Below are positions 1 to 7,740 of a stretch of 7,740 nucleotides of DNA, one piece after another. Position 1 is the stretch's first letter, and each line of letters starts with the position of its first letter. A model generated the notes under the pieces. That model searched no databases and was not told the origin of the DNA. It saw nothing but the letters and a program-made list of their open reading frames with translations. The stretch lies in IMG/VR virus record IMGVR_UViG_2698536443_000001, positions 1 to 7,740 of that record. The stretch is one strand, 5' to 3'. This stretch comes from a virus (lineage: Duplodnaviria > Heunggongvirae > Uroviricota > Caudoviricetes). The translations under genes and the position numbers were made by a program.

Positions 1-49
1 CCCCGTCAGTAGCTGAACAGGAGGGACAGCTGATAGAAACAGAAGCCAC
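1..49 (-). CDS. insA: IS1 InsA, 5' partial (first about 16 codons; continues beyond window)
   Basis: Minus-strand GTG GCT TCT GTT TCT ATC AGC TGT CCC TCC TGT TCA GCT ACT GAC GGG translates to (M)ASVSISCPSCSATDG, the known InsA N-terminus, starting at 49-47 and running off the left edge. Confidence 0.75.
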   Translation of the reverse strand, partial: MASVSISCPSCSATDG

Positions 50-81
50 TGGAGCACCTCAAAAACACCATCATACACTAA

Positions 82-104
82 ATCAGTAAGTTGGCAGCAT
101 CACC
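82..104 (-). repeat. IS1 left terminal inverted repeat (IRL, about 23 bp)
   Basis: Terminal GGTGATGCTGCCAACTTACTGAT on the minus strand ending exactly at the junction (position 104). Confidence 0.8.
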
Positions 105-453
105 CGAATTGCTTGTTTCGAATGAGAGTAATGTATTCTTCGCGAACGTTAGAAACGGTTACGTTAATCCCGTTGTTGTTGATCTCCTTCTCTTCGGTAT
201 TCGATGAGATTTGAAGGAAATCGCCCGTTGCGAGATACGTAAATCCGTTATAGTCCAAATCGAAATACCCATCTGTAAGCCGTAGAACATCCCCTGACGC
301 GGTAATCACTTCGATAATGTGAAACATCGATCCAGTAGAGAAAAGCTGCGGTAGCGTCAATCTAGACACGTTCTGCCCTGTCTGGTCGTTGTAGACCTCG
401 ATGAAGTCAAGATTAGTGCATAGTTTGCTGAATGATTCTTGAATAGTTGCCAT
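100..453 (-). pseudogene. Tail-module gene downstream of the distal-tail-like gene, interrupted by IS1: 117 phage-encoded codons (453..106), then an IS1-derived Gly codon and TGA stop (105..100)
   Basis: ATG at 453-451 overlaps the upstream TAA (TAATG coupling). The frame is open to the IS1 junction, and the last sense codon GGG (105-103) and the stop TGA (102-100) are supplied mostly by IS1 sequence. N-terminus MATIQESFSKLCTNLDFIEVYNDQ. The native C-terminal portion is presumably displaced beyond the IS1. Confidence 0.6.
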
Positions 454-1013
454 TATACATTCTCCACTAATTCGAATTTCATCTTGCCAATCTGGGCGAT
501 CTTCCAATCGATATTTTCAGTTTTGAGAACAAATTCACCTTCTACGTTCTGATACTTGATCACCTCACCAGCCAGGACGTTTTGACGCAAGTTAGGGAAG
601 AGTTTCATTTCACCACCTGATTTCACGTCTTCGGTGATCGTGTAGATTTTCTTGTGGTTCTCAAACTGGATGACAGTTCCCGCTTTCAGTGTTCCGGTGA
701 AGTTGGAGATTCTCACCTTACGCCCACCGCGAGCAGTACCAGCAGCAGCCGTTACCATCTGGCGTACATCACCTGTATATTTTGAAAAGTAAGACAGTGG
801 CACACTAAAAGGACGACCAAAAAGGTGACGTGCTACAAATTCTTTTACTTCGTTAATATCCTGAGCCATGTAATTCGCGGTAAATTCTGCTTCGTAAAAA
901 TGGATGCCAGTAAAGCGACGCTGGAACTTACCGGAGATAGATTGCGCCTTGAAGAAAGGTTGTTTTGATTTAAGAGTAAAATCTGTGATTTTAATATTCT
1001 TGGATTTGAACAT
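453..1013 (-). CDS. Putative distal tail / minor tail protein (186 aa), assigned by position immediately downstream of the tape measure gene
   Basis: Minus-strand ORF. Preferred start is ATG 1013-1011 (MFKSKNIKITDF...), preceded by GGGGG at 1026..1022 with an 8-nt spacer. The track's GTG at 1049 and the ATG at 1028 lack any Shine-Dalgarno and lie inside the hairpin. Stop TAA 455-453. Function is inferred from synteny only. Confidence 0.6.
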   Translation of the reverse strand: MFKSKNIKITDFTLKSKQPFFKAQSISGKFQRRFTGIHFYEAEFTANYMAQDINEVKEFVARHLFGRPFSVPLSYFSKYTGDVRQMVTAAAGTARGGRKVRISNFTGTLKAGTVIQFENHKKIYTITEDVKSGGEMKLFPNLRQNVLAGEVIKYQNVEGEFVLKTENIDWKIAQIGKMKFELVENV

Positions 1014-1016
1014 AGA

Positions 1017-1062
1017 AAAAGCCCCCATAGTTTTATGATTATTTATCACTATGGGGGCTTTT
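1017..1062 (-). terminator. Intrinsic-terminator-like hairpin between tape measure gene and downstream gene; its 3' arm contains the downstream gene's Shine-Dalgarno
   Basis: Perfect 14-bp inverted repeat AAAAGCCCCCATAG (1017..1030) / CTATGGGGGCTTTT (1049..1062), with an inner 4-bp stem TGAT/ATCA (1036..1039 / 1045..1048). On the minus-strand RNA the stem is followed by UUUUUCU and then AUG 1013. Confidence 0.45.
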
Positions 1063-1064
1063 AA

Positions 1065-3410
1065 TTACATCTTACGGCGCTGTGCGTCTTCTACCGCCTG
1101 AGCAACTAACTTAGCGTGACGTTTGATAGCATCCATAACCATCTTGTCTGAGCTATTAACATTGCCGTTAATGTTCAAAGGCGCATTAACTTCAATCGGC
1201 TGAGAGTTACCACCGCCTGATTTTTGAGCAGATAAGAAGTCTTTCAAATCACCGTTAGTACGCTGATCAACTACTCGTTCACCCTTATCAAGCAACCATG
1301 TACCCTCACGAGGGATGTTATCAATACCATCATGAGCCATACCGCTAACGTTAGTAGACTTGATGTTTGCGATGTTCCCCATGTTCTGAGAAACAGCCAA
1401 TGCAGCAGCAGCAATTTTTTGACCTGTGGTGACGTTGGTCGGATCGTTCCATGCATCGGTAGCAGCCGTCCACATGTTCACCGTCGCTTGTCCGATAGAG
1501 AATGCTTTATGAGCATTGAAAGCCATCTGCATAGCTTTAGTGTTTTCCTGCCCGAAGAGAGTCATTGCAGCAGCAAAACCGCCATACATATCATCGGCTA
1601 TTGACTGGCGAGCATCAGCATATTTCTTTTCAATTGCAGCCATCCGTTTTTGATGGTTTTCATTGAGTTTTTCTAATGCTTCCATCCGTTTAGCCGGATC
1701 GGTGATCCCATCAATCTTGAGTAGTTTATCGGTCTTATAATCTTGTTCGGCTTCCGATTTCTCTTTATCGATTGCATTAAATTTAGCAAACGGATTATTT
1801 GAGTCTTGATAATCAAATCCGTTGGTTAATTGATTGGATTTAAAACCATCCATTCCCTGTAAATGACTATCAATCTGAGAATAGTTTTGTTCGGTGTCAT
1901 TCACGCGACGCATATATTCTTCATAGGAGATAGCTTTACCATCAAGTAACCGTTTATGGCTTTCTAACTCGTTGTCCCTGATTTGTTGCAAAACTGTTAA
2001 GGCATTCAAAGCATCAACCGGATCAGCACCCAGCATCATTTTATAAATGTTTTCTGCGTTCTGGTCTAACAGTTGCTGACGTTTCGCGGCTGCGTCTTGC
2101 TGAGAGATTAAGCCCATATCTAAAGCAGTGTCTAAATCTTTCAAGCTGGCTTCTAACTGCTTGTTTTGAGAAGCAATAGACGCGGCTGTCTGACCGTGCA
2201 ATCTAACATCAAGAGCATTCAGCTTTTTAATTGCATCTTCACGCTGTTTCTGCGCTTTTTCTGCGGCCTTCCTTGCTTCTTCTGCCGCTTTTTCTGCTTC
2301 TTCTTGTTCTTTTTTTGTTGGACCAGTGACTCCTCCACCTTGACCAGTTGGGGTAAATCCAGTATCCGATTTATTTCCAGTGATAGTAATTACCGGATCA
2401 CCGTTTTTATCACGGGTAACGCCTTCACTATCCACCCAACGATCAGGATAATTTGGTTTATTGTTGAAGCTGGCTTGTCCACCTGCTAGACCAGTAGAAC
2501 TATAACCATGCTTGTTAATAAAACCACCGTTAGCCATAGCCATATTCTGGCGAGCTTTTTCAAACCTTTCATTAAAAGTCTTTAATGCGTTGAATAAAGC
2601 GGTCTTTTCCCAATCTTTATCAAACCAGTTGTATAACTTGTTCATCCCTTCAACAACTGGATTTAGCGCATTTGCAGCCATACCCTTTAAGTTATCGGTA
2701 AGGGTATCCATATTTTTAGAGAATTTATTATATTCTTCGGCTGTATCATTGGTGATTTTAACAGTTTGCTGATTAATGGCGTTTACAGCTTCCTGATAAG
2801 ATCCGTATTTCTGCAATTCATCAGCCATATGACTTGAATCACTGGCTAACGATTCCATCATAAACTTAACATCAGCGATAGACGCACCAGCTTTGCGCAT
2901 GTCATAGAAGACCTTGATCGCCGCTTTCATCCCGCCTTGTGGATCGTTCATAAACTCGGCATAGTCTTTAATCTTCAAACCTACACTTTCTAGGTCATCT
3001 TCTATACCGCCACCATTACGCCACGCATCAGCCAGTTTATCTAAGGTGTCTTTGTTAATATCACCAAATTTCTCAACGGTTAAGCCAGTACCGGAGAATT
3101 GCTTCTCTAATTTCTGGAGTGTTTCGACGGTTAAACCAGTTGCTTTTGAAACTTCGCTGTATTCCTTTACATAATCACCGATGGCATTTGCAGCAGAGAC
3201 AGCACCAGCAGCCAGACCAACAAAACCACCAGCAGCCAAAGCAAGCGATCCACCAGTTCCGCGAAGGGTTCCACTTAAACTAGATAAACCACCAGACAAA
3301 TCAAGATTCATTGCCCTTTCTGAAAGGTTATCAAGCATGTCAATCGCTTGGTTGGTACTTCTCCTTAGACCGTCGTTATTCCCTTCTATTGTTACTATAT
3401 GTCTTGTCAT
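1065..3410 (-). CDS. Tail tape measure protein (781 aa)
   Basis: Long ORF directly after the chaperone pair. N-terminal Gly/Ala-rich hydrophobic segment (LSGGLSSLSGTLRGTGGSLALAAGGFVGLAAGAVSAANAIG), long helical or coiled-coil-like stretches, and a charged E/K/A-rich block (KKEQEEAEKAAEEARKAAEKAQKQ). ATG 3410-3408 preceded by GGGG (3417..3420). Stop TAA 1067-1065. Confidence 0.85.
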   Translation of the reverse strand: MTRHIVTIEGNNDGLRRSTNQAIDMLDNLSERAMNLDLSGGLSSLSGTLRGTGGSLALAAGGFVGLAAGAVSAANAIGDYVKEYSEVSKATGLTVETLQKLEKQFSGTGLTVEKFGDINKDTLDKLADAWRNGGGIEDDLESVGLKIKDYAEFMNDPQGGMKAAIKVFYDMRKAGASIADVKFMMESLASDSSHMADELQKYGSYQEAVNAINQQTVKITNDTAEEYNKFSKNMDTLTDNLKGMAANALNPVVEGMNKLYNWFDKDWEKTALFNALKTFNERFEKARQNMAMANGGFINKHGYSSTGLAGGQASFNNKPNYPDRWVDSEGVTRDKNGDPVITITGNKSDTGFTPTGQGGGVTGPTKKEQEEAEKAAEEARKAAEKAQKQREDAIKKLNALDVRLHGQTAASIASQNKQLEASLKDLDTALDMGLISQQDAAAKRQQLLDQNAENIYKMMLGADPVDALNALTVLQQIRDNELESHKRLLDGKAISYEEYMRRVNDTEQNYSQIDSHLQGMDGFKSNQLTNGFDYQDSNNPFAKFNAIDKEKSEAEQDYKTDKLLKIDGITDPAKRMEALEKLNENHQKRMAAIEKKYADARQSIADDMYGGFAAAMTLFGQENTKAMQMAFNAHKAFSIGQATVNMWTAATDAWNDPTNVTTGQKIAAAALAVSQNMGNIANIKSTNVSGMAHDGIDNIPREGTWLLDKGERVVDQRTNGDLKDFLSAQKSGGGNSQPIEVNAPLNINGNVNSSDKMVMDAIKRHAKLVAQAVEDAQRRKM

Positions 3411-3413
3411 AAA

Positions 3414-3788
3414 TTACCCCAATTGACCGCTCTTGAGCTTTTGTAATAATGAAGCGTCGAAATAACTATCAACCAAAGCAGAGTTACGTTCTTCCTCTTT
3501 CTTACGAGCAATTTCTTTTATTTCTTCTTGCGTTTTAAATTGCTTGTCGTCCTTAATCATTCGGAATTGGTTAACATTGATTTTATTCAACCATTCACGA
3601 GTCATGTTAGGAGATGTAACGTGCATGTAATACATCGACTGTGCATGTCGCGCATCTTGATATAGGGGGCTTTGTGGTTCAAGATATGTATCGAATATAT
3701 GCAACGCCCAAAATAGCGTAATTGGCATATTATCCATCTCATCTTTACTCAAGCCCCGACGCATCATTTGCCGAAAATAAAAATTCAA
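3414..3788 (-). CDS. Tail assembly chaperone T-segment (-1 frame); probably expressed as a G-T fusion by programmed frameshift rather than from its own start
   Basis: The ORF is in the -1 frame relative to the upstream 102-aa ORF, and its open frame extends upstream to 3812 (bounded by TGA 3815-3813). The track start at 3788 is a TTG with no Shine-Dalgarno. Stop TAA 3416-3414 lies 3 nt before the tape measure ATG. This matches the conserved G/GT arrangement upstream of tape measure genes. Confidence 0.55.
   Translation of the reverse strand: MNFYFRQMMRRGLSKDEMDNMPITLFWALHIFDTYLEPQSPLYQDARHAQSMYYMHVTSPNMTREWLNKINVNQFRMIKDDKQFKTQEEIKEIARKKEEERNSALVDSYFDASLLQKLKSGQLG
3417..3420 (-). promoter_or_regulatory. 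Shine-Dalgarno (GGGG) for the tape measure gene, embedded in the last codons of the upstream ORF
   Basis: Minus-strand TTGGGGTAATTT precedes ATG at 3410. Confidence 0.5.
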
Positions 3789-3796
3789 GAGCGGGT

Positions 3797-3812
3797 TTAC
3801 TTTACCTCGTTT
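3797..3812 (-). other. Candidate -1 programmed ribosomal frameshift window (A-AAG followed by UAA stop)
   Basis: G-frame reads GAA AAC GAG GTA AAG TAA. The -1 frame is open only from 3812, so any shift must occur within 3812..3800. The last sense codon AAG (3802-3800) sits on A-AAG, where tRNA-Lys can re-pair to AAA (3803-3801) while the A site holds a stop codon. Confidence 0.45.
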
Positions 3813-4105
3813 TCAATTACCGCCGCATCTTTCATCAATGATGCTTGAGCAACTAAGCCGATTAATTCACTGCGGACGCTAGTATACAGTGCCTTAACTT
3901 GTTCAATAGATTCAAATACTGGCTTACCGTCTTCATCTTCAATACAACGAAGAATAGAGCGTTCATCACGGTCTTTTTTATCAGTATTGAAAACATGTTC
4001 ATTAAATTCTTGTACCGACATAGGGCGAGCATAGAACGTAAATCCGCCGAGGGTTAAAGATTCACGTTTCGGAGAAAGAGCTTTCAGCATTTCATTCAGA
4101 TTCAT
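3797..4105 (-). CDS. Tail assembly chaperone G-like protein (102 aa)
   Basis: ATG 4105-4103 preceded by GAGGA (4117..4113) with a 7-nt spacer. Stop TAA 3799-3797. Small acidic protein directly upstream of the -1-frame ORF and the tape measure gene. Confidence 0.65.
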   Translation of the reverse strand: MNLNEMLKALSPKRESLTLGGFTFYARPMSVQEFNEHVFNTDKKDRDERSILRCIEDEDGKPVFESIEQVKALYTSVRSELIGLVAQASLMKDAAVIENEVK

Positions 4106-4150
4106 TATTGTTTCCTCATTAATAGTGATTACGCTGTATTTATTTAGAAT

Positions 4151-4657
4151 TTAAGAGATTTTCAAAGTCTGCTTAGTGCCAGTCTTCTTAATGTTATTGA
4201 GGAAAGCAGCCGGAGGATTGCTTAACCAGTAGTAATGAAAACCACTTTGCATACTGTTATAAGGAACAGTGACAGCAGCACCACCCAAATTAACGGTTAT
4301 ATTCCCCGCTCTACCGTTCTGGAGATATACAGCCATAGTAGGAGTACCACCATTGAATTGACCAACGATAACGCCAATCAGACGCCCTACGCCCACGTTT
4401 TCGGGGTTCTCCATTGACCCTTTACCGCGCATGTCAGTTACTGGATAGTTTGAAGCAGTTACCCCCCAGTTATTCCCCAATGAAGTAGACCATGCAGCAG
4501 TAGCTACAACCGTATCCATACCACGACCACACATCGCGCTCATATTACCAGGAACACCAACTTTTAACGCTTGCATAGCCTCACGCATCCATCGCTTGCC
4601 AGTCACAGAAACAGCCGATGATCCGACCCAGCCGGGCTTATTAACGACATTTGCCAT
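4151..4657 (-). CDS. Hypothetical protein (168 aa), Gly/Asn/Val/Thr-rich, possibly structural; function unknown
   Basis: ATG 4657-4655 preceded by GGAG (4669..4666) with an 8-nt spacer, immediately after a terminator-like hairpin. Stop TAA 4153-4151. No motif I can assign. Confidence 0.6.
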   Translation of the reverse strand: MANVVNKPGWVGSSAVSVTGKRWMREAMQALKVGVPGNMSAMCGRGMDTVVATAAWSTSLGNNWGVTASNYPVTDMRGKGSMENPENVGVGRLIGVIVGQFNGGTPTMAVYLQNGRAGNITVNLGGAAVTVPYNSMQSGFHYYWLSNPPAAFLNNIKKTGTKQTLKIS

Positions 4658-4665
4658 TTTGATTA

Positions 4666-4669
4666 CTCC
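4666..4669 (-). promoter_or_regulatory. Shine-Dalgarno (GGAG) for the 168-aa gene
   Basis: Minus-strand GGAGTAATCAAA precedes ATG at 4657. Confidence 0.55.
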
Positions 4670-4699
4670 AATAAAAAAGCCCCACCATTAAGGCAGGGC
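4670..4699 (-). terminator. Intrinsic-terminator-like hairpin plus U-tract downstream of the tube gene and its extension
   Basis: Minus-strand RNA: GCCCUGCC (4699..4692), loop UUAAU, GGUGGGGC (4686..4679), then UUUUUUAUU (4678..4670). The 8-bp stem uses two G-U wobbles that would be C-A mismatches in a plus-strand RNA, so the structure is specific to the sense transcript. Confidence 0.5.
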
Positions 4700-4705
4700 T
4701 TAAAA

Positions 4706-4825
4706 TTAATTCTTAGCCTTGCGGCCTCGTTTTGCTGTGGCTTTCACCGTAACTTCTTCTACTTCTGGAATCACCACCGCTTCATGTTCCGGCTGTGGTT
4801 CCGGTTCGGGAAGTTCTTCGTTAGT
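4706..4825 (-). other. In-frame 39-codon extension after the TGA stop of the 157-aa gene (candidate readthrough product)
   Basis: After TGA (4828-4826) the same frame continues ACT AAC GAA GAA CTT CCC ... AAG AAT TAA (stop 4708-4706), encoding TNEELPEPEPQPEHEAVVIPEVEEVTVKATAKRGRKAKN. The other two frames hit stops within 2-19 codons. The extension stops 6 nt before the terminator hairpin. Confidence 0.35.
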
Positions 4826-5299
4826 TCATCCGGCAGTGAAGATTTCCTGTTTCAGCGGAGCACCATCAACAGCAAAGGTAAACTCTTTAGTTACCACTTC
4901 TTCATCGCCACCGTTCATAGCAACTTTAGAGATGAAGCCGTTGAAAGCGGTGCGAATACCAGTCTGTTTTGCTGCATCAACATAGTATTCAATCTTAATC
5001 TGAATACGAGTACCGTCTTCGGCAGCTTTAATGAGCTTCTCGTGTACCGCATCACCAGGGATGTAGTTAACGGTCAGAGTCAGATCAGGAACGTTCAGCT
5101 TCCCTACCAGCTTACGGTTATACTGAGAAGAGAAGGATTTAACTTCTACAGTACCGCGCTCGATACCAGTTTCAGGAAAACCAGCACACTCTTTAATTTC
5201 TTCGTAGCTTTCGTGATCGAGAGCGGTGTTAGTGGTATCGGCGTGATAGAACATACTTACCAGACCACCAGTAAAAATATCTTTAAATTGCTGAGTCAT
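4826..5299 (-). CDS. Putative major tail (tube) protein-like protein (157 aa)
   Basis: ATG 5299-5297 preceded by AAGGGG (5312..5307) with a 7-nt spacer. Stop TGA 4828-4826. Size and position (upstream of chaperone pair and tape measure gene), plus hairpins flanking the cistron on both sides, suggest an abundantly expressed structural gene. The tube assignment is inference. Confidence 0.6.
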   Translation of the reverse strand: MTQQFKDIFTGGLVSMFYHADTTNTALDHESYEEIKECAGFPETGIERGTVEVKSFSSQYNRKLVGKLNVPDLTLTVNYIPGDAVHEKLIKAAEDGTRIQIKIEYYVDAAKQTGIRTAFNGFISKVAMNGGDEEVVTKEFTFAVDGAPLKQEIFTAG

Positions 5300-5306
5300 A
5301 GAATTA

Positions 5307-5312
5307 CCCCTT
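5307..5312 (-). promoter_or_regulatory. Shine-Dalgarno (AAGGGG) for the 157-aa gene
   Basis: Minus-strand AAGGGGTAATTCT precedes ATG at 5299. Confidence 0.5.
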
Positions 5313-5330
5313 AATTAAAATTGTTTATAA

Positions 5331-5349
5331 CGGGGGAACTAGTCCCCCG
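5331..5349. terminator. GC-rich hairpin between fiber gene and tube-like gene (possible terminator or attenuator, either orientation)
   Basis: CGGGGGA (5331..5337), loop ACTAG, TCCCCCG (5343..5349): a perfect 7-bp stem. U-rich tracts follow on both strands (plus: CUUUUAUUAUUU; minus: UUAUAAACAAUUUUAAUU). Confidence 0.4.
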
Positions 5350-5356
5350 ACTTTTA

Positions 5357-7675
5357 TTATTTAGTTGCTTTCAGTTCGGCAATTTCTTTCTGTAATGCTT
5401 CGATCTGTGCTTTATATTTGGCGTCCATTTCCTGCATAGCTTTAATAATCAGAGCATTGACAGCAGAGTTAGAAATAGTCTTGATTGCTTCTGGATTTTC
5501 TGGATCTTCGGTGGATTGAATACCTACTGCTTCCGGCAATACTTCTTCCAGATCCTGAGCAATAATACCTACTTCGCGTTTAATCACTGTGTCATCGGAA
5601 AGAGATTTAACTTTATCGTAGGTGTAGACTTTCAGGGAGTTTACTTTCTCTAATGCGCCGTCCTGTAATTCTTCCTTGTTAATCTTCAAACGGGAGTCAG
5701 AGCGAATGTAAACATCGTTAAAGCTACCGTTACGACCTGCGGTAAAGTCACCAGCAGCGTTAAAGTCAAAGTTAGTATCATGAACATGGAGACGAACAAG
5801 AGCGTTACCGATAGTACCGCTAGGAACGTGCACACCCATTGCTGCAATGTGATATTGACCCCAATGAGTAGCTTTCCAGATGTTATGTGCTGAATCTTTT
5901 GATTGGGGGCAATCAACTTGCAAACCGGAAGCACGGTCACGCCAACTAGACCAGCTACCACCAGAAACGTTACCACGAATCAAACCTTTATCAGACCCGC
6001 CGACGCTACCAGATTCAAGATGAATCATCTTATCCGCAAGTTTCCACGTCTGGGCTTGTTTCTGACCACGGAAGCGAATAACACCAGCATCATCGGAATA
6101 CATCAAACCTAGTTCTAAGCCGTTCGGATCTCTAAACCAGATGTGCTTATTTCCAGTGCGCTTAAATTCAATATCAGCACCGTTAAGCGTGATATTACCG
6201 CCAGTGTGGATTGCTTGAGGCCTAACAGTACCATTGATGGCAAATTCAATAGTAGAAGTACCAGGACCGCCAGCACGTTGGGTATACCAGTGCCAACCAC
6301 TTTCATCCGCGCATTCTAATACTTGCTTACGAGAATCATTACCCCATGCACGAATATTAAAGCTGGATGTAGCTGTATTTTTACCCCAAGTAAACTTACC
6401 ACCGACTTCAAGATCGCCTAAGAAGTTTGCCTTAAGAGCACCAGTACCCATAGCACGCTCTGTGCTAAAATGTCGACCTTGACTGTCTTCTATATACAAA
6501 ACGTTATCACGGGCATTATTACTATCACCCCAATGATTAAATCGAATATAATCACGAGATCCGCTTCTCCCAGCAGAGAAGGTTAAAAACCCTTTCTCGA
6601 TATATGTATCGCCAGCAAATCGAGCAGCACGGCTATCTCTTTCAAGAATTAATGCGCCTTCGTTGCCGTCACCACCTAAAGTAACTTTACCGTTAGTCAA
6701 ATCGTAAATGAACGGTCTGTTTCCATTCCACCCGCCCAATTTATCATTTTCGGCAGTAGAAAGAAGATAAACTTTACCACCATCATTACGCCAGAATGCA
6801 CCATAATTACCGTAGATCATGCGGTAGGCGTCGCTATTCATTGAGATGAATTGAGCGTTAGTATAAACTCGTTTTGTTTTACCTGTTGCAAGTTCGATCT
6901 GTCCGTCGATGTGGTGACGAATAGAAGTACCACCTACATCACTATACCATTCAAAAACGTTAGTATCAGCATTACCATAGCCGATCCAACCTTGACGGGT
7001 AATATCTCCAGTCCGATTATCTTGAAACGCAATATGGTTGGATTGACCAGCAGGACGCCGCAAGGTAATAACATTACTACCGCCACCTAACATCATTCGA
7101 CCAGAAAGAATATTACCTTTATGAGTCCCAGCAATAGAGCTACTAGATTCAACGGTTAGAATCTCCTGAGCATCGGTACTACCCGTGGCGAGTCGATAAC
7201 TGGAACCTTGAACCGTCTCATGCCAGATCATTTCATTATAGTTACTACGGAATTTACGAATATATTTCCGTCCAGTACCTCTATCATTGCTTAGATGAAC
7301 AATGTCATAGCTGTTTTGTGTATTGTCGTCAAAACTCAACACACCACGTTTATTTTCGGTATTAAAAAGAGTTACGTTGCGACCACCGATAACACCAACG
7401 GAAGGTTTAATTAACGTGGCTTCCGGCGTATCATAAACCGTCAAACTTACATAAACAGATTTCCCATATTCGACAATAACGTTATCGGTATAACGCTGAT
7501 ATTTCACGTAGATATCATAGTTATCACCGGAAGTATTGACAGCAAATACCTCAAAATCCTTGTTTGTATTTCTACGGTATGCAATTACGTTAAGACCTTT
7601 AGGTCTATCGTTACCACTACGCAGAAGAATTTCTACTACGTCAACCTGTGGATTTGCCCCTATATTTCCAGACAT
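5357..7675 (-). CDS. Tail fiber / tailspike-like protein (772 aa) with C-terminal intramolecular chaperone auto-processing domain (peptidase S74-like)
   Basis: C-terminal region contains YIRSDSRLKINKEEL... followed by a coiled-coil tail (AKYKAQIEALQKEIAELKATK). The S...K spacing matches the Ser-Lys dyad motif of endosialidase-type C-terminal chaperone domains. The large Gly/Asn/Thr/Ser-rich central region is typical of beta-structured fibers. ATG 7675-7673, stop TAA 5359-5357. Confidence 0.8.
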   Translation of the reverse strand: MSGNIGANPQVDVVEILLRSGNDRPKGLNVIAYRRNTNKDFEVFAVNTSGDNYDIYVKYQRYTDNVIVEYGKSVYVSLTVYDTPEATLIKPSVGVIGGRNVTLFNTENKRGVLSFDDNTQNSYDIVHLSNDRGTGRKYIRKFRSNYNEMIWHETVQGSSYRLATGSTDAQEILTVESSSSIAGTHKGNILSGRMMLGGGSNVITLRRPAGQSNHIAFQDNRTGDITRQGWIGYGNADTNVFEWYSDVGGTSIRHHIDGQIELATGKTKRVYTNAQFISMNSDAYRMIYGNYGAFWRNDGGKVYLLSTAENDKLGGWNGNRPFIYDLTNGKVTLGGDGNEGALILERDSRAARFAGDTYIEKGFLTFSAGRSGSRDYIRFNHWGDSNNARDNVLYIEDSQGRHFSTERAMGTGALKANFLGDLEVGGKFTWGKNTATSSFNIRAWGNDSRKQVLECADESGWHWYTQRAGGPGTSTIEFAINGTVRPQAIHTGGNITLNGADIEFKRTGNKHIWFRDPNGLELGLMYSDDAGVIRFRGQKQAQTWKLADKMIHLESGSVGGSDKGLIRGNVSGGSWSSWRDRASGLQVDCPQSKDSAHNIWKATHWGQYHIAAMGVHVPSGTIGNALVRLHVHDTNFDFNAAGDFTAGRNGSFNDVYIRSDSRLKINKEELQDGALEKVNSLKVYTYDKVKSLSDDTVIKREVGIIAQDLEEVLPEAVGIQSTEDPENPEAIKTISNSAVNALIIKAMQEMDAKYKAQIEALQKEIAELKATK
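5360..5701 (-). other. Intramolecular chaperone (S74-like) domain-coding region of the fiber gene; predicted autocleavage motif SDSRLK at 5684..5701
   Basis: Residues about 659-772. Codons TCT GAC TCC CGT TTG AAG (5701..5684) encode S-D-S-R-L-K. Confidence 0.6.
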
Positions 7676-7740
7676 CTGTTATCACTTAACCCATTACAAG
7701 CCCGCTGCCGCAGATATTCCCGTGGCGAGCGATAACCCAG

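What the first reader, a model, noticed from the sequence alone, without database searches (positions are those of the whole stretch)
1..113. IS1 end inserted into a phage tail gene, truncating it after 117 codons
Positions 1..104 are the reverse complement of the IS1 left terminus (IRL plus the insA start). The minus-strand tail gene starting at 453 runs open right up to the junction and is terminated by IS1-derived sequence (GGG then TGA at 105..100). By synteny (tape measure, distal-tail-like gene, then this gene) the interrupted gene would be a tail tip or baseplate component. The cluster is therefore probably a defective prophage, or an element whose distal tail and receptor-binding end has been remodelled by IS activity.
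Basis: partly seen in the sequence, partly recalled or inferred. Interest (0 to 1): 0.75.

Follow-up and report, generated by a model that had tools for sequence, protein, structure and literature searches.

The report
IS1 insertion breaking prophage tail-hub gene
A copy of the common jumping gene IS1 has landed in the middle of the tail-tip "hub" gene of an E. coli prophage, and a second jumping gene, IS2, has split the tail-fibre gene at the other end of the contig; this is ordinary, recent decay of a prophage.

Summary
Window 1..104 is 104/104 identical to the IRL/insA end of IS1A of E. coli K-12. The minus-strand gene starting at 453 keeps 116 native codons, then a hybrid GGG and an IS1-derived TGA.

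Intact copies of this gene are 217 aa in 56 complete E. coli genomes and in every full-length database homologue. Two uninterrupted prophages are 7544/7544 identical to the rest of the window, so the insertion is disruptive and very recent.

Window 7649..7740 is 92/92 identical to the right end of IS2, which removes the first 413 codons of the 1176-aa tail fibre. The fibre ORF's "ATG" lies inside IS2.

The window is a whole 7.7-kb draft contig of E. coli (CYFN01000104.1), bounded by IS copies. Matching missing halves of both genes exist as separate database proteins, which favours simple insertions.

The second IS1 end and its 9-bp duplication could not be read. Interest is low.

The parts
1..104 (-). 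Left end of IS1: IRL at 104..82; insA GTG start at 49..47 with its first 16 codons running to position 2. The contig ends inside the element.
   Evidence: 104/104 identity to IS1A of K-12. Thousands of identical copies occur in E. coli genomes.
105..113 (.). Candidate 9-bp IS1 target-site duplication copy (CGAATTGCT; AGCAATTCG in gene orientation).
   Evidence: Inferred only. The empty site in the 100 %-identical relative L011 reads AAGCAATTCG|ATAAATCC. The second copy lies on another contig that could not be read.
100..453 (-). Truncated tail-tip hub gene: 116 native codons (453..106), a hybrid Gly codon (105..103) and an IS1-derived TGA (102..100). The intact gene is 217 codons.
453..1013 (-). 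Distal tail protein (Dit-like), 186 aa. Its stop codon overlaps the hub start codon.
   Evidence: phrog_1302 distal tail protein, 1.3e-16. Weak PF21430 pb9 B-domain match.
1065..3410 (-). Tail tape measure protein, 781 aa.
   Evidence: phrog_13674 tape measure, 6.7e-66.
3414..4105 (-). Two small genes in the tail-assembly-chaperone position (3797..4105 and 3414..3767).
   Evidence: phrog_344 TAC 1.8e-07 and weak PF16459 for the first gene; position only for the second.
4151..4657 (-). gp38-like tail-fibre adhesin gene, 168 aa.
   Evidence: PF21721 Gp38_N 3.6e-15; phrog_1121 tail fiber adhesin 1.5e-33.
4826..5299 (-). Tail tube (major tail) protein, 157 aa.
   Evidence: phrog_158 4.6e-21; PF16460 just below cut-off.
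5357..7648 (-). 3' part (763 codons plus stop) of a 1176-codon tail-fibre gene. The 772-aa ORF reported up to 7675 borrows its ATG and 9 codons from IS2.
   Evidence: Gp34_trimer and Peptidase_S74 domains. About 80-83 % nucleotide identity to gp37 of RB49-like phages.
7644..7648 (.). One copy of the 5-bp IS2 target duplication (CAGGT in gene orientation).
   Evidence: The window fragment starts with QV (CAGGT...). The separate N-terminal fragment P0066 ends ...YDQV+RLAP*, which is GT plus the IS2 left end translated.
7649..7740 (-). Right end of IS2 (IRR plus the last codons of insD). The contig ends inside the element.
   Evidence: 92/92 identity to the last 92 nt of IS2A of K-12.

Best explanation
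The window is a complete short-read contig (CYFN01000104.1, E. coli) that holds the central tail module of a roughly 32-kb siphovirus-type prophage carrying a serine recombinase. The assembler stopped at repeated IS copies on both sides.

On the left, IS1 transposed into codon 117 of the 217-codon tail-tip hub gene. This gene is the lambda gpL / T5 pb3-N / DUF2163 type, and IS1 sits in the same orientation as the tail operon. The hub product is cut inside its conserved attachment domain.

By the classical polarity of IS1 insertions (inference from established knowledge), transcription of the downstream DUF6950 gene and the 1258-aa J-like tip gene should also be reduced.

On the right, IS2 split the tail-fibre gene after codon 413/414.

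Together these two hits should make the prophage unable to build an adsorbing tail, that is, a defective prophage. Both insertions are very recent simple transpositions rather than ancient decay or deletions.
For: Shown:
- IS1 identity is 104/104 and IS2 identity is 92/92.
- The window is the entire contig, and the source names the organism as E. coli.
- Uninterrupted orthologues of 217 aa exist in 56/5426 complete E. coli genomes. In Logan contigs L011 and L015, the DNA is 7544/7544 identical to window 105..7648, with clean empty sites at both junctions.
- All complete homologues are 214-221 aa, with many invariant residues after position 117.
- The missing halves exist as separate gene products.
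  - A 93/97-aa hub C-terminal fragment (CTZ32322.1 / WP_261289476.1) lies on a 31,974-nt contig. Its sequence is identical to the C-terminus in L011/L015, and its RefSeq number is 5-6 below those of the two window fragments.
  - The 419-aa fibre N-terminal fragment P0066 (CTZ54658.1) is identical to the L015 fibre over 415 aa and ends in IS2-IRL-encoded RLAP*. This implies the canonical 5-bp IS2 duplication.

Inferred: the polarity on downstream genes, the loss of infectivity, and the 9-bp IS1 duplication.
Against: - The contig stops 104 nt into IS1. The rest of IS1, its IRR and the target duplication were therefore not seen.
- The GenBank protein number of the hub C-terminal fragment (CTZ32322) is far from the window's numbers (CTZ554xx). 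It may come from a sister isolate rather than the same assembly, so co-residence of the two halves is likely but not proven.
- No expression or induction data exist.
- The Pfam score for the hub (26.4) only just passes the cut-off (26), and the AF2 model is of moderate confidence (pLDDT 70, C-terminal 40 residues unmodelled).
Confidence: 0.88

Rival explanations
1. IS1-mediated rearrangement. The IS1 copy marks the edge of an adjacent deletion, or of an inversion between two IS1 copies, so the distal tail genes are no longer next to the hub fragment or are lost.
For: The contig ends inside IS1, so the far side is unseen. IS1 is multicopy in E. coli, with a median of about 10 matching places per genome. 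That makes IS1-IS1 recombination possible.
Against: A hub C-terminal fragment starting just after the breakpoint is annotated as a separate 93/97-aa gene on a 31,974-nt contig. Its sequence is identical to the 100 %-matching relatives, and its RefSeq accession is adjacent to those of the window fragments. At the other contig end, IS2 shows both flanks and a 5-bp duplication, the signature of simple transposition. An inversion between IS1 copies is still not excluded.
Confidence: 0.08
2. Assembly artefact. The IS1 sequence was wrongly joined to the prophage contig end by the short-read assembler, and the hub gene is intact in the cell.
For: Both contig ends are about 100 nt of a repeat, which is roughly k-mer or read length.
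Against: The identical contig is recorded from two samples. The breakpoint is base-precise at the IS1 terminus. Matching complementary fragments exist as separate gene calls. No full-length hub protein from this assembly turned up. The IS2 end shows the expected TSD logic across two contigs.
Confidence: 0.03
3. The gene naturally ends near codon 117 and IS1 lies in an intergenic space, so the insertion is harmless.
For: None found.
Against: All complete homologues in E. coli, Salmonella and Leclercia are 214-221 aa. Invariant residues extend to W212. The Pfam domain and the predicted beta-sandwich core span the breakpoint. Relatives 100 % identical in DNA read through the site.
Confidence: 0.01

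Closest known systems
IS1 (IS1A of E. coli K-12 MG1655)
   Same: The terminal 104 nt are identical, including the IRL and the insA start.
   Different: Only the end is present in the window. Full length, the insA/insB frameshift region, the IRR and the 9-bp duplication were not observable.
IS2 (IS3 family; IS2A of K-12)
   Same: The last 92 nt, including the IRR and the insD 3' end, are identical. A 5-bp duplication is inferred from the two fibre fragments.
   Different: Only the right end lies in the window. The left junction is known only from a protein (P0066), not from DNA.
Siphophage tail-tip hub proteins: lambda gpL, T5 pb3 N-terminal region, JBD30 DUF2163 protein, Chi gp27, R4C hub, Sf11 gp16
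   Different: Sequence identity is only 8-17 %. No PDB hit was found by sequence, and the profile gave only E = 0.39 to T5 pb3. At 217 aa it is shorter than most hubs. No lambda-L-type Fe-S C-terminal domain was tested.
IS-inactivated (cryptic or defective) prophages of E. coli, e.g. K-12 CP4-6 with IS5A, and O157 Sakai prophages with IS629 (the latter from my own knowledge)
   Same: IS elements sit inside prophage structural genes. IS elements and prophages are neighbours genome-wide (PMC13548323). CP4-6 with IS5A is visible.
   Different: Here the decay is at its very first step. The prophage DNA is otherwise 100 % identical to uninterrupted copies.

Membership tests
IS1 family insertion sequence | 23-bp terminal inverted repeat (IRL GGTGATGCTGCCAACTTACTGAT) at the junction | tested here: met
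   Window 104..82 is identical to the IS1A IRL.
IS1 family insertion sequence | insA reading frame starting about 55 nt from the IRL | tested here: met
   The GTG start and 16 codons (VASVSISCPSCSATDG) are identical to K-12 InsA.
IS1 family insertion sequence | Complete 768-bp element with insB' and IRR | not testable with these tools
   The contig ends at IS1 nucleotide 104. The junction pattern is absent from genome contigs.
IS1 family insertion sequence | 8-10-bp (typically 9-bp) target-site duplication | not testable with these tools
   Only one flank is readable. The candidate is CGAATTGCT at 105..113, and the empty site is shown.
IS2 (IS3 family) | Terminal sequence with IRR and the insD 3' end | tested here: met
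   92/92 identity to IS2A.
IS2 (IS3 family) | 5-bp target-site duplication | tested here: met
   At protein level. P0066 ends ...DQV+RLAP* (GT plus the IS2 IRL) and the window fragment begins QVD (CAGGTTGAC). The empty site reads GAT|CAGGTTGAC. This assumes P0066 comes from the same genome.
Siphophage baseplate hub / tail-tip protein (PF09931, DUF2163; gpL-like) | Pfam PF09931 match at or above the gathering score | tested here: met
   26.4 bits against a cut-off of 26, residues 43-149. This is marginal. The precomputed PF09931 hit appears on several homologues.
Siphophage baseplate hub / tail-tip protein (PF09931, DUF2163; gpL-like) | Hub fold | tested here: met
Siphophage baseplate hub / tail-tip protein (PF09931, DUF2163; gpL-like) | Gene order TMP - Dit - hub - small protein - large J-like tip protein | tested here: met
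Defective prophage | Essential structural gene(s) disrupted within an otherwise recognisable prophage | tested here: met
   The hub gene is cut by IS1 and the fibre gene by IS2. The prophage context includes terminase, portal, capsid, lysis genes and a serine recombinase.
Defective prophage | Failure to produce infectious particles on induction | not testable with these tools
   An experiment is needed.

The most novel reading that the evidence does not exclude
The hub gene of this prophage family may be hit repeatedly and independently. Three events were seen: IS1 at codon 117 here, IS5 after about codon 175 in another lineage (P0025, 11 member sequences), and a frameshifted variant (P0026). 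This could reflect selection for lysogens that keep the prophage but cannot make functional tails (domestication), or a local IS target hot spot, rather than random decay.
Probability: 0.08. Interest if true: 0.35.

Novelty: already known. Interest (0 to 1): 0.1.

Why it matters
It matters little beyond correct annotation.

- The 117-aa 'hypothetical protein' (CTZ55409.1 / WP_261289481.1) and the 772-aa 'tail fiber domain-containing protein' (WP_261289482.1) are IS-generated fragments, not genuine genes. The fibre ORF's start codon belongs to IS2.
- The prophage should be scored as defective in this strain.
- The case is a clean example of the first step of prophage decay. There are two IS hits and zero substitutions over 7.5 kb relative to intact copies.
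- It also shows how IS copies fragment short-read assemblies at exactly the informative junctions.

Tried and rejected
- An exact search for the IS1/hub junction in genome contigs gave 0 hits, because the source assembly is not a species representative.
- Megablast of 1..1100 against 5426 complete E. coli genomes found no genome with this same insertion.
The other IS1 junction and the TSD could therefore not be read.
- A PDB sequence search with the hub protein gave no hit. The profile search gave only E = 0.39 to T5 pb3. NCBIfam gave nothing.
- The phage nucleotide collection matched only the fibre gene, against RB49-like gp37, and not the rest of the module.
- A composite transposon spanning the window was considered and rejected, because IS1 and IS2 belong to different families and cannot act together.
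- The 'naturally short gene' idea was rejected.
- The idea that the IS2-derived ATG creates a functional N-terminally truncated fibre was considered. There is no evidence for it; the in-frame ATG has a 1-in-3 chance expectation.

Full report
**What the window is**

An exact look-up of the 117-aa product shows that the window is the whole of contig CYFN01000104.1 (7740 bp, reversed) of assembly GCA_001283445.1. The sources name the organism Escherichia coli.

All genes lie on the minus strand and form a siphovirus-type tail module:

| Window coordinates | Gene |
|---|---|
| 5357..7675 | tail-fibre ORF |
| 4826..5299 | tail tube |
| 4151..4657 | gp38-like adhesin |
| 3414..4105 | two chaperone-position genes |
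| 1065..3410 | tape measure |
| 453..1013 | distal tail protein |
| 100..453 | the gene in question |

**Checking the observation**

I fetched IS1A of K-12 MG1655 with its annotation and compared it base by base. Window 1..104 equals the terminal 104 nt of IS1A, 104/104, in reverse-complement orientation. This stretch contains the IRL and the GTG start plus the first 16 codons of insA.

Identity ends exactly at 104|105. From 105 the sequence continues as prophage DNA that is found without IS1 in 56 of 5426 complete E. coli genomes at 97-98.6 % identity.

The minus-strand ORF from ATG 453 has 116 native codons. It then reads GGG (one native base plus two IS1 bases) and the IS1-derived TGA at 102..100.

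**Is the insertion disruptive?**

Yes.

- In annotated complete genomes the orthologue is 654 nt / 217 aa and is named 'DUF2163 domain-containing' or 'baseplate hub domain-containing' protein.
- All complete homologues in the large protein database (E. coli, Salmonella, Leclercia; down to 48 % identity) are 214-221 aa. Invariant residues extend to W212.
- An exact look-up of the window's tape-measure protein returned uninterrupted prophages. Two of them (L011 from SRR11281102 and L015 from SRR7693628) are 7544/7544 identical to window 105..7648. They read straight through the site, AAGCAATTCG|ATAAATCC.

The insertion is therefore also very recent.

**What the gene is**

- The intact protein matches Pfam PF09931 ('baseplate hub protein, N-terminal attachment domain') over residues 43-149. 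The score of 26.4 bits only just passes the cut-off of 26.
- It matches phrog_2048 'tail protein' at 3e-27.
- An AlphaFold2 model built on 17 homologues has mean pLDDT 70, with a well-predicted core up to about residue 170.
- Downstream in intact copies lie a DUF6950 gene, a 1258-aa J-like tip protein (Phage_Tail_Tip, Ig_GpJ_C), small ORFs, an M15 peptidase and a serine recombinase at the prophage end.
- Upstream lie terminase, portal and a protease-capsid fusion.

The interrupted gene is therefore the gpL-type tail-tip hub of a roughly 32-kb prophage, and the break lies inside its conserved domain.

**The other end of the contig**

Window 7649..7740 is 92/92 identical to the right end of IS2A of K-12.

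The 772-aa 'tail fibre' ORF takes its ATG (7675) and nine codons from the IS2 inverted repeat. The native part is the last 763 codons of a 1176-codon gene.

A separate database protein, P0066 (419 aa, CTZ54658.1, on an 8,947-nt contig), is identical to the first 415 residues of the L015 fibre. It ends in RLAP*, which is exactly GT plus the IS2 left end translated. Both fragments contain the codons for Q-V. This implies the 5-bp duplication CAGGT that is typical of IS2.

The contig is therefore the piece of prophage lying between an IS2 insertion and an IS1 insertion.

**Simple insertion or rearrangement?**

The far side of IS1 cannot be read. I predicted which ORFs would remain on the other side and looked them up by exact sequence.

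- The 93-aa (CTZ32322.1) and 97-aa (WP_261289476.1) C-terminal hub fragments exist as separate gene calls on a 31,974-nt contig.
- Their sequence equals the C-terminus of the 100 %-identical relatives.
- The RefSeq number is 5 and 6 below those of the two fragments in the window (WP_261289481.1 and WP_261289482.1). This suggests the same annotation batch.

These points favour a simple transposition with both gene halves retained. The distant GenBank protein number leaves open that the fragment was recorded from a sister isolate. An inversion between IS1 copies is not excluded.

**Mechanism**

Shown: the hub gene is truncated inside its domain, and the fibre gene has lost its N-terminal 413 codons.

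Inferred from established knowledge:
- gpL-type hubs are required for tail-tip assembly.
- IS1 insertions are strongly polar, so the downstream DUF6950 and J-like genes are probably under-expressed.
- The prophage should therefore be unable to make adsorbing virions.

There is no sign of 'remodelling' of the receptor-binding end. These are knock-outs.

**Comparison and novelty**

IS1 and IS2 here are identical to the K-12 copies. IS insertion into prophage structural genes is a standard route of prophage decay, and ISs and prophages are neighbours genome-wide (PMC13548323). Nothing here departs from known behaviour.

The practical value lies in annotation. Two deposited 'proteins' are IS-generated fragments, and the prophage is defective in this strain.

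**Verdict**

It is extended by the IS2 end and by the identification of the gene as a hub. The phenomenon is already known, and interest is about 0.1.

Noticed in passing
window 7649..7740 (and 7649..7675 within the fibre ORF): The right contig end is the right end of IS2 (92/92 to IS2A). It splits the 1176-codon tail-fibre gene after codon 413/414. The annotated 772-aa fibre protein starts at an ATG inside the IS2 inverted repeat, so its first 9 residues (MSGNIGANP) are IS2-derived.
   Followed up: yes
protein P0025 (187 aa; homologue of window 100..453): In another lineage (11 member sequences) the same hub protein is cut after about residue 175 and ends in KVRISGEILLG*. This is frame 2 of the IS5 terminus, so it is an independent IS5 insertion in the same gene. 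P0026 (221 aa) is a frameshifted variant.
   Followed up: partly
L010 1547..2317 (NZ_CP080126.1); same in H81, H103, H106: In at least 4 of the 56 complete E. coli genomes with this prophage, a 771-nt gene for a NUMOD3-domain protein (homing-endonuclease-like) sits between the hub gene and the DUF6950 gene. The hub gene is left intact.
   Followed up: partly
window 5426..7648 and 4151..4657: The fibre gene is about 80-83 % identical in DNA to gp37 (long tail fibre distal subunit) of lytic RB49-like Krischvirus phages (ECD7, Phi1, RB49), and a gp38-like adhesin gene is present. This is a T-even-type fibre module in a temperate siphovirus-type prophage. Unusually, the fibre gene precedes the tail tube gene and gp38 follows it.
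   Followed up: partly
window 105..7648 compared with L011 5763..13306 and L015: There are zero substitutions in 7544 nt between this IS-disrupted prophage segment and uninterrupted copies in unrelated sequencing runs (SRR11281102, SRR7693628). By contrast, complete-genome copies differ by 2-15 %, mostly in the fibre/gp38/TMP region, which looks mosaic.
   Followed up: partly
L008 (NZ_CP119011.1 4316800..4333500): In strain CE0007a the prophage ends next to the hicA / (truncated) hicB / yncJ region. The hicB antitoxin gene is annotated as partial there, which may mark the attachment site of the serine recombinase.
   Followed up: no
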